Below, piece after piece: positions 54,847-57,494 of a DNA stretch of 64,000 nt. Origin of the DNA: Vicinamibacterales bacterium (GTDB taxonomy: Bacteria > Acidobacteriota > Vicinamibacteria > Vicinamibacterales > UBA8438). The notes below the pieces were generated by a model. The model was not told the origin of the DNA and did not search any database. It saw only the letters and a list, made by a program, of their open reading frames with translations. How positions within the stretch are numbered: position 1 is the first letter of the stretch; every line of letters starts with the position of its first letter. The position numbers and the translations under genes were made by a program. The DNA is taken from positions 144,639-208,638 of the forward strand of contig CBDBBK010000002.1 in assembly GCA_965202655.1 (NCBI GenBank), read 5' to 3'.

Positions 54847-55398
54847 TCAGTTGCCGCCGAGGTAGTCGAGCGCGAACGCCCGCAGCGCATCGCTCCGCAG
54901 GCCGATCGCTTCCGCCTCGACCGTCGCGTCCTCGAACGAGTAGCCGTCCTGCTTCACGCGCTTGATGAGCCACATGAAGCCCACCCGATTGGCGGATCCG
55001 CAATGGATGTACACCGGCTGGTTGTCCGGCTCGGCCACCGTGTCGAGGAACTGATCGACGAGTTCGGTCGTCGGCTCGCGGAAGGGAAGATGCACGTAGT
55101 TCAATCCCGCCGCCTCAGCCGCCTCACGTGACGCTTCGACCCGCGCGTTCCGCTCGCCCGCGGTGCGGAAGTTGATGATCGTGTTGAATCCGCGCTCGCG
55201 GATCTCCGGCATCGCCTCCGGGCCGGTCGCCCCGGCGCACGCCACCGTGGCGTCCACCCGGGTGTAGTTCGGCACCCCTTCGGGTCCCTCTTCCTCAAGG
55301 AAGTTCTGCGCCTGCACGGCCACGACCGTCCCGGCCGCAACGAGCAGGACCGCAGCGAGAGCCGCCACCAACGTCAACGGTTTTCTTGACTGCTGCAT
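54847..55398 (-). CDS. Exported PTP-like/BLH (DUF442) sulfurtransferase-phosphatase domain protein
   Basis: Signal peptide, IINFR, HCGSANR. Confidence 0.8.
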   Translation of the reverse strand: MQQSRKPLTLVAALAAVLLVAAGTVVAVQAQNFLEEEGPEGVPNYTRVDATVACAGATGPEAMPEIRERGFNTIINFRTAGERNARVEASREAAEAAGLNYVHLPFREPTTELVDQFLDTVAEPDNQPVYIHCGSANRVGFMWLIKRVKQDGYSFEDATVEAEAIGLRSDALRAFALDYLGGN

Positions 55399-55498
55399 GA
55401 CCGGTGATTGTACCATCGGCGTCCACGCTTCTGGCGCGCCGGCGTACGCCCTCGGGGCGCGCTGGCCTCCAGACCGGCGCAAGAAAGGGAGGCACGGC

Positions 55499-55963
55499 AT
55501 GCCAGACGTTGTCCACACCAGCCGCATGCGGATCGAGCGGGTCAAGGGGCCGGTCCGCGAGGCGTTTCTCGACGGTTTCGACGCGCCGATCCGTTTCGGC
55601 GTCCACGGCGGCATCAAGAAGTTCTACGGCGTGGAGCCCGAGGAAGAGGTTCCCGCGACGCTGGACTACATCGTCGGCTCCGTCGGCGGTTGACTGCTCG
55701 GCACCCTTGCACGCGCACTGGAAGTGCGCAAGGTTCCGGCGCCGCGCGACAAGATCTCGGCCCAGGTGGAAGGCGATATCGAGGCCATCGACAACGTGCT
55801 GCGCATCACGCGGATCCGCGTCCGGTACGCTCTGACCGTCCCCCGCGGGATGCGGGAAGCGGCCGAGCGCGCCGTCGCGAAGCACCCGAAGGGGTGTCCC
55901 GCCGCGAACAGCGTTGCAGGCTGCATCGACCTCGACATCGCCGCCGACATCACCGAGGAATAG
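55499..55963 (+). CDS. OsmC/Ohr-family protein with in-frame TGA (selenocysteine) at 55691-55693
   Basis: GGAGG RBS; ATLDYIVGSVGG-U-LLGTLARAL...HPKGCP in one frame; downstream hairpin. Confidence 0.85.
55705..55733 (+). promoter_or_regulatory. Bacterial SECIS-like stem-loop
   Basis: CCTTG-CACG bulge-CGCACT-GGA-AGTGCG-CAAGG, starting 11 nt after the TGA. Confidence 0.7.
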
Positions 55964-56012
55964 GCCCGCCGGCCCCGCCGACCCCGCCGCTGGCGGCGCC
56001 AAGGCTGTCGCC

Positions 56013-57494
56013 GTGACACTTCCCCTGATGGATGGCCCCGGGGATCGCCCCGTCGGGTGGCGGCCGTGGTGCGCCTCCGCTTTCGCCGACGCCCGCGCCG
56101 CCGGCGCGCCCGTCCTGCTGTCGCTGGGGCCGTCGTGGTGCCGCGCCACCGCCGCGATGGCGTCGGACACTTACGCCGATCCCGCCGTCACCGCCCTGAT
56201 TGCCGAGCGGTTCGTTCCGATCCGCGTGGACGCGGACGCCCGCCCGGACATCGCCGACCGCTACAGCCTGGGCGGCTGGCCCACCACCGCGTTCCTGACT
56301 CCGGACGGCGACTTGCTGGGGGGCGAGACGTACATACCGCGCGAACGGATGCGCGGTCTGCTGCCGCGGGTGGCCGATGCCTTCGCCGCGCAGCGCGACG
56401 CGATTGCCGGGCGCCGCGCGCCGGCCCCGGGAGCACCCGTTCCCGCCGCCGCACCTGACCAGACGATGGACGGCTGGCTCGCCGCGCACCTGCTCGATCA
56501 GTTCGACGCCGAGCACGGCGGCTTCGGGAGCGCACCGAAGCGCGTGCACGCCGCCGCGCTCGAGTATGCGGCGCGCCGCGCCGCGGCGGGTGACGAACGG
56601 TTCGGCGACGTCGTCGACCGGACGCTGCGCGCCATCGGTTGGGGCGGGTTGTACGACCCGGTGAACGGCGGCGTCTTCCGCTACTGCGCAGGGTCGAACT
56701 GGACGGAGCCGGCGACCGAGAAACTGCTGGGCGTGAATGCGGCGGTGTTGCGGCTGCTGCTGGAACGCGACGGCGACGACTACCGCGAGCGCGCCGCGCA
56801 CCTGATCCGCTACGTCCGGCGAACGCTGCTCGGCCGTCCCCAGGGCCGGGCCGTGTTCTTCGCGAGCCAGCGGGCGGACCCCGACTACTACGCCGGCGAA
56901 ACGCTCCCGCCGCCCGCGGTGGATCGCGCCCTGTACGCGGACGGCACCGCGCTGATGGTCCGGGCCTGGGCGCGCGCCGCGACAGTGCTGGACGACGAGA
57001 GGCTGCTGGCGGATGCGGTCGACGCCCTCGAGCACGTGGTCGCCGGCACCTACGAGCGCGGCGGCGGGATCGCCCACCGGGCGGGCGAAGACGGCGGCGG
57101 AGCCGATACGGTGCGCGGACTGCTGGGTGATCAGGTGGCGGCCAGCGCGGCGCTCCTCGATCTGTACGCGGTGACGGATCGCGACGTCTATCTCGACATG
57201 GCGCAGGAACTGATGCACTTCTGTAACCACCACCTCTGGGACGATACGGCCGGCGCCTTTCGCGACCGCGTCCACGCCGCCGGCGACATCGGACTGCTCC
57301 GGGAAGCGGCATACCCCTTCGCCCTCAACTGCGATGCCGCCCGCGTTCTTCTCCGGCTGGCCCGTCTGACCGGACACGCGCCGTTCCACGACCGCGCCCT
57401 CTCGACGCTCGCCGCGCAGACTTCCACCGCCCGCGCCCACGGCCCCGACGCCGCTCCCTACGCCCTTGTCCTTCAGGATCTCGCCGCCGCCTGA
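56013..57494 (+). CDS. DUF255 thioredoxin-domain / YyaL (SPATA20)-like protein
   Basis: SWCRATAAM, FVPIRVDADARPDI, GGWPTT, GGFGSAPK, GGVFRY; start uncertain (56013 or 56028). Confidence 0.85.
   Translation: MTLPLMDGPGDRPVGWRPWCASAFADARAAGAPVLLSLGPSWCRATAAMASDTYADPAVTALIAERFVPIRVDADARPDIADRYSLGGWPTTAFLTPDGDLLGGETYIPRERMRGLLPRVADAFAAQRDAIAGRRAPAPGAPVPAAAPDQTMDGWLAAHLLDQFDAEHGGFGSAPKRVHAAALEYAARRAAAGDERFGDVVDRTLRAIGWGGLYDPVNGGVFRYCAGSNWTEPATEKLLGVNAAVLRLLLERDGDDYRERAAHLIRYVRRTLLGRPQGRAVFFASQRADPDYYAGETLPPPAVDRALYADGTALMVRAWARAATVLDDERLLADAVDALEHVVAGTYERGGGIAHRAGEDGGGADTVRGLLGDQVAASAALLDLYAVTDRDVYLDMAQELMHFCNHHLWDDTAGAFRDRVHAAGDIGLLREAAYPFALNCDAARVLLRLARLTGHAPFHDRALSTLAAQTSTARAHGPDAAPYALVLQDLAAA

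What the first reader, a model, noticed from the sequence alone, without database searches (positions are those of the whole stretch)
55499..55963. Hidden OsmC-family selenoprotein with a SECIS-like hairpin
Seen: two ORF-track fragments are one reading frame joined by TGA (55691). The TGA sits in VGG-*-LLG, and the frame later contains HPKGCP. A bulged stem-loop with a G-first loop starts 11 nt after the TGA. Known: OsmC/Ohr peroxidases have a first catalytic Cys in this helix and a second in a CP motif, and bacterial SECIS elements lie just 3' of the UGA. Inference: a 154 aa Sec-containing peroxidase that gene callers would split in two. OsmC-like selenoproteins have been reported before, so any novelty lies in this lineage and context.
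Basis: partly seen in the sequence, partly recalled or inferred. Interest (0 to 1): 0.78.

Follow-up and report, generated by a model that had tools for sequence, protein, structure and literature searches.

The report
OsmC-type selenoprotein gene split by annotation
The apparent stop codon inside this small antioxidant-type (OsmC) gene almost certainly encodes selenocysteine at the catalytic site; this kind of selenoprotein has been known since 2005, so the main value is correcting an annotation that cuts the gene in two.

Summary
Window 55499-55963 (+) is one 154-codon frame with a single in-frame TGA (55691-55693). It is an OsmC-fold protein (Pfam PF02566; AlphaFold pLDDT 97.4). U65 aligns with the first (peroxidatic) Cys of solved OsmC/Ohr proteins and C133 with the second.

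The TGA sits in the same column in 110 of 110 related loci inspected, from Vicinamibacterales and several other phyla. All 51 ortholog-level matches in 301 Acidobacteriota genomes carry exactly one TGA. More distant full-length homologs mostly have Cys there (44 Cys/Cys).

A hairpin (55713-55729, loop GGA) meets the published bacterial SECIS model. It shows covariation and is the least synonymously variable stretch of the gene.

selA, selB, selD and tRNA-Sec are present. TGA is otherwise this genome's commonest stop. Contigs from four studies confirm the TGA.

This is a real selenoprotein gene of a known kind. It lies outside the curated model NF041052 and lacks the published UxxT motif (it has U-x-x-G-T). 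Public databases hold it as two halves. This scan has met the same family before on other DNA. Selenium incorporation and peroxidase activity remain untested. Interest is low to moderate.

The parts
55487..55492 (+). Shine-Dalgarno sequence GGGAGG, 6 nt before the ATG
   Evidence: Read directly from the sequence.
55499..55963 (+). Single coding sequence of 154 codons plus TAG stop: OsmC-fold selenoprotein
   Evidence: Translation with TGA=U. Pfam OsmC E=2.9e-10, 40.9 bits against a 27.5 cut-off. AlphaFold pLDDT 97.4 with OsmC/Ohr fold matches. Orthologs align over residues 1-154 in relatives.
55691..55693 (+). UGA read as selenocysteine (U65), at the peroxidatic-Cys column
   Evidence: TGA is in this column in 30 of 30 loci from relatives and 80 of 80 named loci. 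It aligns with the first Cys of 1ukk, 4mh4 and 1n2f. No variant appears in contigs from 4 studies.
55713..55729 (+). SECIS hairpin: arms 55713-55719 and 55723-55729, loop GGA at 55720-55722 (or loop UGGAA with a 6-bp stem); 25-26 nt from the UGA to the loop
   Evidence: Meets all four criteria of the bSECIS model quoted, with core dG -9.7 kcal/mol. Across 57 sequences 98.2% of cells pair and 3 of 8 pairs change on both sides; 0 of 500 shuffles reach the covariation score. Codons 72-78 are the lowest of 91 windows in synonymous variability.
55895..55897 (+). TGT codon for C133 in the G-C-P motif, at the resolving-Cys column
   Evidence: Cys in 80 of 80 named loci. Invariant in 85 unique Sec-form proteins and in alignment A4. 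Aligns with the second Cys of OsmC/Ohr structures.

Best explanation
Window 55499-55963 is one intact gene for a 154-residue OsmC-fold thiol/selenol peroxidase-type protein.

During translation the UGA at 55691 is recoded as selenocysteine. SelB carrying Sec-tRNA(Sec) is recruited by the mRNA hairpin at 55713-55729, 25-26 nt downstream of the UGA. The genome's own selA, selB, selD and tRNA-Sec supply the machinery.

The selenolate of U65 sits at the N-terminal part of the long helix (residues 54-76), in the position of the peroxidatic Cys of OsmC/Ohr. By analogy with those enzymes it would attack a hydroperoxide, form a selenenic acid, and then a selenenylsulfide with C133 (the resolving position in G-C-P). 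A dithiol reductant would then reduce that bond. The invariant residues R20 and E91 or D56 are candidates for the activating Arg/Glu pair.

Shown here: the single frame, the family and fold, the aligned catalytic columns, conservation of the TGA and hairpin, the presence of the machinery, and the existence of Cys homologs.

Inferred: actual selenium insertion, the peroxidase chemistry, the substrate and the reductant.
For: Family and fold:
- Pfam OsmC, 40.9 bits against a 27.5 cut-off.
- AlphaFold pLDDT 97.4, pTM 0.89.
- The top Foldseek PDB hits are OsmC/Ohr proteins: 2onf TM 0.78, then 4mh4, 6mjn, 1lql, 1ukk and 1nye, with 63 matches at E<=0.001.

Catalytic columns:
- U65 and C133 align with the two Cys of 1ukk, 4mh4 and 1n2f and of 1ukk and 2onf by profile.

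TGA conservation:
- 41 of 44 matching genomes among 61 relatives have exactly one TGA.
- It is in the same column in 30 of 30 loci and 80 of 80 named loci. Those span Vicinamibacterales, Terriglobia, Actinomycetota, Rokubacteria/Methylomirabilales, Nitrospinota and a deltaproteobacterial MAG.
- All 51 matches at E<=1e-20 in 47 of 301 Acidobacteriota genomes have one TGA (the column was not inspected there).

Sec/Cys pairing:
- 44 full-length homologs have Cys/Cys.
- C65 and C133 are the only invariant columns of A4.

SECIS:
- All four model criteria are met.
- Covariation is present.
- The hairpin core has the lowest synonymous variability of the gene: entropy 0.33 against 1.14 bits, Mann-Whitney p=2.4e-4, rank 1 of 91 windows.

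Machinery:
- selA 544 bits, selD 316 bits, selB 304 bits, all above their cut-offs, and tRNA-Sec 60.6 bits plus ARAGORN.
- All 41 TGA-carrying relatives have selA above cut-off. The 4 genomes without selA lack the ortholog.

TGA elsewhere:
- TGA ends 649 of 1140 long frames and three of the four flanking genes.

Independent data:
- Contigs from 4 studies cross the TGA with 0 mismatches.
Against: - There is no direct evidence of selenium insertion or of expression. No RNA run was available, and nothing here measures protein.
- The hairpin on its own is unremarkable in this GC-rich genome (z = -0.5; 13% of random TGAs pass the model).
- RNAalifold over all clades finds no common structure (2 pairs, -0.59 kcal/mol), because the hairpin lies in a different register in the Actinomycetota-type and Rokubacteria-type clades. 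One of 11 representatives tested (L113) reaches only -6.9 kcal/mol.
- One ortholog (G007, L048) has an extra in-frame TAG at codon 21.
- Some distant full-length homologs have A, S, D, G or V at the first column, so not every relative is a redox enzyme.
- selA is nearly universal in this order (57 of 61), so the co-occurrence discriminates poorly.
- Peroxidase activity rests on homology only. Scores against the curated OsmC peroxiredoxin models are far below their cut-offs (TIGR03562 16 against 85.8; TIGR03563 13.8 against 166).
Confidence: 0.88

Rival explanations
1. The selenoprotein is real but is not a hydroperoxide reductase. It would use the U65/C133 pair for another redox or transfer reaction, for example reduction of disulfides, persulfides or selenium compounds, or a sensing or carrier role. 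Many OsmC-superfamily branches have no demonstrated activity.
For: - Scores against the curated OsmC and SACOL1771 peroxiredoxin models are far below their cut-offs.
- Several of the closest structures are uncharacterised 'hypothetical' or 'putative' OsmC-like proteins, such as 2onf, 4mh4 and 2egt.
- The family has its own invariant set (R20, H36, D56, E91) that I could not map onto the Ohr or OsmC catalytic Arg/Glu.
- Neighbours differ by phylum and include a DUF255 thioredoxin-like protein, a BLH-phosphatase-like protein and MsrPQ-like genes.
Against: - Both catalytic columns of OsmC/Ohr are kept.
- The fold matches peroxidases of all three branches with TM 0.65-0.78.
- Sec at a peroxidatic position is the common pattern among thiol-peroxidase selenoproteins listed in the catalogues read here (passages).
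Confidence: 0.2
2. The UGA is read through or recoded as a standard amino acid (Trp, Cys, Gly or Arg) rather than Sec, either by near-cognate decoding or by a deviant genetic code.
For: Seven database proteins carry W at this column (4 that span both catalytic columns, 3 shorter ones).
Against: - TGA is the commonest stop in this genome (649 of 1140 long frames) and ends three of the four flanking genes.
- The W proteins come from contigs of about 0.7-0.9 kb and sit next to Sec forms in the tree (P0003 with L105, SH-aLRT 97). That fits gene callers having used a TGA=Trp table; this is an inference, since their DNA could not be read.
- A Trp at the catalytic Cys column would abolish the chemistry.
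- A conserved, covarying hairpin at SECIS distance and a full Sec machinery are present.
Confidence: 0.04
3. The TGA is a genuine stop. The locus would be a pseudogene or two separate small genes (an N-terminal 64-residue peptide and a C-terminal OsmC fragment), as public annotation has it.
For: - Gene callers produce 75 N-terminal fragments, 50 of which align up to query residue 64. They also produce 100 C-terminal fragments, 60 of which align from residue 66.
- One ortholog (L048) has an additional TAG.
Against: - A nonsense codon would not be kept in the same column in 110 of 110 loci across several phyla down to 51% identity while both halves stay in frame under purifying selection. There are 25 invariant residues on both sides, including C133-P134.
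- Neither half alone forms the OsmC fold.
Confidence: 0.02
4. Sequencing or assembly error: the true codon is TGC or TGT.
For: None found.
Against: - Contigs from four runs of four different studies cross 55691-55693 with 0 mismatches, and no alternative letter is listed there.
- 110 independently assembled relatives have TGA.
Confidence: 0.005

Closest known systems
OsmC-like selenoprotein family of the marine metagenome surveys (Zhang, Fomenko and Gladyshev 2005, PMC1088965; GOS 2008, PMC2398784; catalogues PMC9312934 and PMC13188914). I read passages only.
   Same: PF02566/OsmC domain. Sec predicted at a redox-active Cys column with Cys homologs. A SECIS hairpin immediately 3' of the UGA with G in the apical loop. 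Predicted by bioinformatics, not validated biochemically.
   Different: The published motif is UxxT and the assignment is COG1765 (YhfA type). Here the motif is U-L-L-G-T (UxxGT), and by profile the nearest solved structures are OsmC proper (1ukk 6.5e-8, 1qwi/1nye 2.4e-5), ahead of YhfA 1ml8 (3.6e-3). I could not fetch the published example sequences, so identity with or distinctness from that family is unresolved.
NCBIfam NF041052 'OsmC-related (seleno)protein'
   Same: An OsmC-superfamily model that allows for Sec. It is the best NCBIfam hit for this protein.
   Different: The score is 22.8 bits against a curated cut-off of 95. There is no six-frame match in this genome at E<=0.01, and 0 of 201 Acidobacteriota genomes have a member above cut-off. 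NCBI's pipeline would therefore not name or join this gene.
OsmC (E. coli 1qwi/1nye; T. thermophilus 1ukk) and Ohr (1n2f, 1zb9, 6ebg) two-Cys hydroperoxide reductases
   Same: Same fold (TM 0.65-0.78). The peroxidatic and resolving positions are in the same columns.
   Different: Sec replaces the first Cys. Sequence identity is only 12-21%. Scores against TIGR03562 and TIGR03563 are below their cut-offs. The activating Arg/Glu could not be mapped. The reductant is unknown.
E. coli fdhF-type bacterial SECIS and the consensus bSECIS model (as quoted in PMC13188914, section 5, passages)
   Same: A hairpin inside the coding sequence, 16-37 nt from the UGA to the loop, a small apical loop with G-G, and MFE <= -7.5 kcal/mol. 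The loop UGGAA fits the N1-G-[G/U]-N-N2 pattern with a U-A closing pair.
   Different: The sequence is unrelated to that of other families. Within this one protein family the hairpin occupies three different registers in different clades.

Membership tests
OsmC superfamily (Pfam PF02566) | Score above Pfam's gathering threshold | tested here: met
   40.9 bits against 27.5, E=2.9e-10, residues 54-147 on profile positions 8-99 of 100.
OsmC superfamily (Pfam PF02566) | OsmC/Ohr alpha-beta fold | tested here: met
   AlphaFold pLDDT 97.4. Foldseek PDB top hits are all OsmC/Ohr, TM 0.62-0.78, with 63 matches at E<=0.001.
OsmC/Ohr two-Cys peroxidases | First (peroxidatic) Cys on the long helix and second (resolving) Cys in a C-P context, in the family's columns | tested here: met
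   U65 and C133 align with both Cys of 1ukk, 4mh4 and 1n2f and of 1ukk and 2onf. The first position holds Sec instead of Cys.
OsmC/Ohr two-Cys peroxidases | Conserved activating Arg and Glu near the peroxidatic residue (feature recalled from the OsmC/Ohr literature, not from a call) | tested here: inconclusive
   R20, D56 and E91 are invariant in 85 Sec forms, but I did not map them onto the Ohr or OsmC residues in three dimensions.
OsmC/Ohr two-Cys peroxidases | Hydroperoxide reductase activity | not testable with these tools
   Needs an enzyme assay.
NCBIfam TIGR03562 (OsmC family peroxiredoxin) and TIGR03563 | Score above the curated cut-off | tested here: not met
   16 bits against 85.8, and 13.8 bits against 166.15.
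NCBIfam NF041052 OsmC-related (seleno)protein | Score above the curated cut-off of 95 bits | tested here: not met
   22.8 bits. No six-frame match in G000. 0 of 201 genomes of the phylum over the cut-off.
Published OsmC-like selenoprotein family (Sargasso Sea/GOS) | Redox motif UxxT | tested here: not met
   The window has U-L-L-G-T. G68 and T69 are invariant in 85 Sec forms. The published motif is quoted.
Published OsmC-like selenoprotein family (Sargasso Sea/GOS) | Sequence similarity to the published examples (AACY01145085, MBR72571.1, MCS5647933.1) | not testable with these tools
   No tool fetches sequences by those accession numbers.
Bacterial selenoprotein gene (general criteria used in the surveys) | In-frame TGA aligned with Cys in homologs, with conserved flanks | tested here: met
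   TGA in 110 of 110 loci. 44 Cys/Cys full-length homologs.
Bacterial selenoprotein gene (general criteria used in the surveys) | bSECIS model: loop 3-9 nt, stem 4-16 bp, G in the first two loop positions, 16-37 nt spacing, MFE <= -7.5 | tested here: met
   Loop GGA or UGGAA, stem 7 or 6 bp, spacing 26 or 25 nt, -9.7 kcal/mol (criteria quoted). The baseline pass rate of random TGAs is 13%.
Bacterial selenoprotein gene (general criteria used in the surveys) | Sec machinery (selA, selB, selC, selD) in the genome | tested here: met
   all are above their curated cut-offs.
Bacterial selenoprotein gene (general criteria used in the surveys) | Selenium actually incorporated | not testable with these tools
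   Needs 75Se labelling or mass spectrometry.

The most novel reading that the evidence does not exclude
This is a second, separate OsmC-superfamily selenoprotein lineage. It would be of the OsmC-proper type with motif U-x-x-G-T, distinct from the COG1765/UxxT family described in 2005 and from NF041052. It is abundant in Acidobacteriota (about one genome in six in the sample) and present in at least five other phyla. The UGA has been retained while the SECIS hairpin was rebuilt in three different registers of the same coding stretch. That would make it a natural series for studying how SECIS elements turn over under protein-coding constraint.
Probability: 0.45. Interest if true: 0.45.

Novelty: new member of a known kind. 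Interest (0 to 1): 0.3.

Why it matters
The practical value is annotation. In public protein collections this gene appears mostly as two halves: 75 N-terminal and 100 C-terminal fragments against 4 full-length read-throughs with W among the proteins examined. No curated NCBIfam model joins the halves.

As a result, a widespread antioxidant-type selenoprotein of soil and marine Acidobacteriota and several other phyla goes uncounted in selenoproteome and selenium-use surveys.

Biologically it adds a well-supported, lineage-wide case of Sec at the peroxidatic position of an OsmC-type protein. It also offers a family in which the UGA is fixed while the recoding hairpin differs between clades. It does not change what is known about how selenoproteins work.

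Tried and rejected
- RNAalifold on all 72 non-redundant TGA+60 sequences gave no common structure (2 pairs). I then treated the clades separately.
- A motif scan of the genome for the same hairpin after a TGA (10 hits) returned this gene and nine hits without an open frame across the TGA. It was not informative about other selenoproteins.
- Gene context gave no functional partner. Synteny with the DUF255 thioredoxin-like gene (50 of 80 loci), the BLH-phosphatase-like gene (42 of 80), the PLP decarboxylase (52 of 80) and transketolase (42 of 80) is confined to Vicinamibacterales-type loci and absent from the other phyla. I read it as shared ancestry. Pfam on 50 neighbouring ORFs from 21 distant loci found no shared partner.
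- Expression could not be assessed: no RNA holder was listed.
- The careful maximum-likelihood search did not finish in 288 s, so only the quick tree is reported.
- The search for NF041052 members in the phylum, intended for a direct comparison, found none above cut-off. The comparison with that family therefore rests on scores only.
- Literature. 'osmc' + 'selenoprotein' gave 10 papers and 'selenoprotein' + 'acidobacteriota' gave 13. None of the listings or passages I read describes an OsmC selenoprotein in Acidobacteriota, and the deep-Sep paper has 0 occurrences of OsmC. No supplements were read, and they may list such genes. A third search was rejected for a malformed term and was not repeated.
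- Complex prediction (homodimer) was not used. OsmC dimers are textbook, so a pass would add little.

Full report
**Observation**

Window 55499-55963 on the + strand is a single reading frame of 154 codons with one internal TGA at 55691-55693. With TGA read as U the product contains ...VGS-VGG-U-LLGTLARALEVR... and ...KHPKGCPAAN.... GGGAGG at 55487-55492 precedes the ATG by 6 nt.

**Family, fold and catalytic columns**

- The product matches Pfam OsmC (PF02566) at 40.9 bits against a gathering score of 27.5.
- An AlphaFold model built on 41 sequences is very confident (pLDDT 97.4, pTM 0.89).
- Its best PDB matches are all OsmC/Ohr proteins: 2onf TM 0.78, then 4mh4, 6mjn, 1lql, 1ukk, 1nye, 1n2f and others, with 63 matches at E<=0.001.
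- In sequence alignments to solved structures, U65 falls on the first Cys and C133 on the second Cys of T. thermophilus OsmC (1ukk), 4mh4 and P. aeruginosa Ohr (1n2f). A family profile gives the same result with 1ukk (6.5e-8) and 2onf.
- In the model U65 lies near the start of the long helix 54-76, and C133 lies between helices 119-132 and 134-139.

**Conservation of the TGA**

- Among 61 related genomes, 44 have a match, and 41 of those carry exactly one TGA inside it.
- The other three are a fragment at a contig end that does not reach the column (G019), a short partial match with a TAG (G046), and a 29%-identical paralog without a stop (G040).
- In the 30 loci fetched, the TGA is in the same column in 30 of 30. 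One of them (G007, L048) also has a TAG at codon 21.
- A scan of species-representative genomes found 285 relatives. In the best 80, the column is TGA in 80 of 80 and the second column is Cys in 80 of 80.
- Those records are titled Vicinamibacterales, Vicinamibacteraceae, Vicinamibacteria, Acidobacteria, Terriglobia, Actinomycetota (Thermoleophilia, Gaiellales), Rokuibacteriota, Methylomirabilales, Nitrospinota and one Deltaproteobacteria MAG.
- In an even sample of 301 genomes of the phylum, 47 have a match at E<=1e-20. All 51 matches, down to 36% identity, contain exactly one TGA. I did not inspect the column there.

**Cys homologs and what the databases hold**

- Of 266 database proteins examined, those spanning both columns are mostly Cys/Cys (44). 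Four have W at the first column and C at the second. A minority of distant ones have A, S, D, G or V at the first column.
- The same set holds 75 N-terminal fragments, 50 of which align up to query residue 64. It also holds 100 C-terminal fragments, 60 of which align from residue 66. These are the two halves that gene callers make of this gene.
- In a quick maximum-likelihood tree (79 rows; the careful search did not finish), all 27 Sec forms lie in one half together with 12 Cys and 4 W forms. That half is separated from 36 Cys/other forms by a branch with SH-aLRT 92.
- Cys forms are interspersed among the Sec forms: 8 changes by parsimony, at least 4 forced by well-supported branches.
- The W proteins sit next to Sec forms (P0003 with L105, support 97). 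I infer that they are TGA codons translated with a TGA=Trp table on short contigs. Their DNA could not be read.

**The hairpin**

- The bSECIS model quoted in a 2026 review (passages) asks for a 3-9 nt apical loop, a 4-16 bp upper stem, a G in the first two loop positions (pattern N1-G-[G/U]-N-N2), 16-37 nt between the UGA and the loop, and MFE <= -7.5 kcal/mol.
- The window has GCGCACU-GGA-AGUGCGC at 55713-55729: stem 7 bp, loop GGA, spacing 26 nt, -9.7 kcal/mol. Read the other way it is a 6-bp stem with loop UGGAA, spacing 25 nt, -8.8 kcal/mol.
- On its own this proves little. The 70-nt fold has z = -0.5. 13% of 4000 random TGAs in this genome pass the same test, and 5.7% are at least as stable.
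- The weight comes from comparison. In 57 non-redundant Vicinamibacterales-type sequences, 98.2% of cells pair. Three of 8 pairs change on both sides (C-G to G-C in 6 sequences, G-C to A-U in 1, A-U to G-C in 1). The remaining changes are G-U wobbles. Depending on the measure, 0 or 1 of 500 shuffles reach the observed values, and all slid controls are far lower.
- Across 67 unique coding sequences, codons 72-78 (the hairpin) have the lowest synonymous variability of 91 seven-codon windows. Mean codon entropy is 0.33 against 1.14 bits elsewhere (Mann-Whitney p=2.4e-4). The one variable site, GAA/GAG at codon 75, closes the loop as U-A or U-G.
- The sequences are related, so these statistics overstate independence.
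- Across all clades RNAalifold finds nothing in common, because the other clades carry different hairpins in other registers. The Actinomycetota type has CUGGCCA-CGGCGC-UGGCCAG (spacing 19). The Rokubacteria/Terriglobia type has CGCU[G/A]GC-CGGGGC-GCU[G/A]GCG (spacing 17).
- Ten of 11 representatives tested pass the model. L113 reaches only -6.9 kcal/mol.

**Machinery, code and data quality**

- The genome (4.16 Mb, 3 contigs, 94.6% complete) has selA (544 bits), selD (316 bits) and selB (304 bits), all above their curated cut-offs.
- It also has one tRNA-Sec, found by ARAGORN and by Rfam RF01852 at 60.6 bits against 47.
- selA is above cut-off in 57 of 61 relatives. All 41 TGA carriers have it, and the four genomes without it lack the ortholog. 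Because selA is almost universal in this group, this is consistent but not discriminating.
- TGA ends 649 of 1140 long frames and three of the four flanking genes, so the code is standard.
- Contigs of four runs from four studies (marine and sponge metagenomes) cross the TGA with 0 mismatches, and no alternative letter is listed there.

**Context**

- Upstream on the minus strand lies a BLH-phosphatase-like protein (54847-55398), and beyond it a PLP-dependent decarboxylase.
- Downstream on the same strand lie a DUF255 thioredoxin-like/GlcNAc-2-epimerase-like protein (about 55998-57494) and transketolase.
- This order is kept in Vicinamibacterales-type loci only and is absent in the other phyla.
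- In Actinomycetota the gene often follows MsrP/MsrQ-like genes. One locus has rubrerythrin next door, and two Terriglobia-type loci have an ECF sigma factor.
- This loosely suggests oxidative stress, but no partner gene is established.

**Mechanism**

- Shown: one gene, the OsmC fold, Sec at the peroxidatic column, Cys at the resolving column, a conserved recoding hairpin, and the machinery.
- Inferred from the established OsmC/Ohr mechanism: the U65 selenolate reduces a hydroperoxide and forms a selenenylsulfide with C133, which is then recycled by a dithiol donor. PDB titles show Ohr with dihydrolipoamide.
- R20, H36, D56 and E91 are invariant in 85 unique Sec forms and are candidates for the activating residues.

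**Comparison with what is known**

- OsmC-like selenoproteins were predicted in the Sargasso Sea survey (3 sequences, COG1765, motif UXXT) and again in GOS and Olavius symbiont data. They are listed in the 2022 and 2026 catalogues (passages).
- This protein has UxxGT, not UxxT.
- By profile it is nearer OsmC proper than YhfA.
- It scores 22.8 bits against the 95-bit cut-off of NF041052. That model has no member above cut-off in 201 genomes of the phylum (the tally includes one genome flagged unpublished, G083).
- I could not fetch the published example sequences. Whether this is the 2005 family or a second Sec lineage therefore stays open.

**Earlier notes of this scan**

Four look-alike windows by sequence and 25 notes by words describe the same kind of gene in other genomes, with the same reading. 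I reached mine before seeing them, and I treat them as agreement rather than evidence.

**Verdict**

This is a real, conserved selenoprotein gene, with about 0.93 confidence for Sec recoding and about 0.7 for peroxidase function. It is a new member of a known kind, and its main consequence is a systematic annotation error. Interest 0.3.

Noticed in passing
G000 contig C1:1192972-1195356 (locus L002:142-2526, +); outside the window: selD is fused to an N-terminal pyridine-nucleotide-disulfide oxidoreductase domain. The 794-aa frame has Pyr_redox_2 at residues 32-337 and AIRS/AIRS_C at residues 490-785, with no in-frame stop, so it is a Cys-type or other non-Sec SelD.
   Followed up: partly
Loci L111-L128 (Actinomycetota type) and L106, L120, L121, L125, L127 (Rokubacteria/Terriglobia type), TGA +17 to +40: Within one protein family the UGA is fixed, but the downstream hairpin sits in three different registers with different sequences. 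In the Rokubacteria type, both Leu codons switch together from CUG to CUA in L121 and L125, turning two G-U pairs into A-U pairs.
   Followed up: partly
L048 (G007:C9), codon 21 of the ortholog: One ortholog carries an additional in-frame TAG at codon 21, besides the Sec TGA. It may be a decaying copy or an assembly error in that genome.
   Followed up: no
window 55672-55733: In all four runs laid, the summed contig depth rises several-fold over the TGA-plus-hairpin stretch (for example X2: 843 against about 52-180 in the bins just before and 74-153 after). The rise comes from very short, high-depth contigs of 43-46 nt. It could reflect near-identical nucleotides shared by many co-occurring relatives. 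The tool warns that contig depth cannot rank parts of a gene, so this is only a hint.
   Followed up: no
G062, G097, G149, G274: Four genomes of the phylum carry two TGA-containing copies of the family.
   Followed up: no
window 55998-57494 (+): The gene immediately downstream on the same strand is a DUF255 (Thioredox_DsbH) plus GlcNAc-2-epimerase-like protein. Its thioredoxin-like region reads S-W-C-R-A rather than C-x-x-C. The adjacency is kept in 50 of 80 loci, all of them Vicinamibacterales-type.
   Followed up: partly
L111, L112, L114, L116, L118, L119, L128: In Actinomycetota the Sec-OsmC gene lies just downstream of MsrP/MsrQ-like genes (molybdopterin oxidoreductase in L111 and L112; cytochrome b561 in L111, L114, L116, L118, L119 and L128). 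In five of these seven loci (L111, L112, L114, L118, L128) a carboxylesterase follows downstream.
   Followed up: no
The search of earlier findings, notes e1-2814045 and e1-4540973: Earlier notes describe another OsmC subfamily with the TGA at the second (C-terminal) Cys instead of the first. It was not seen in this window or checked here.
   Followed up: no
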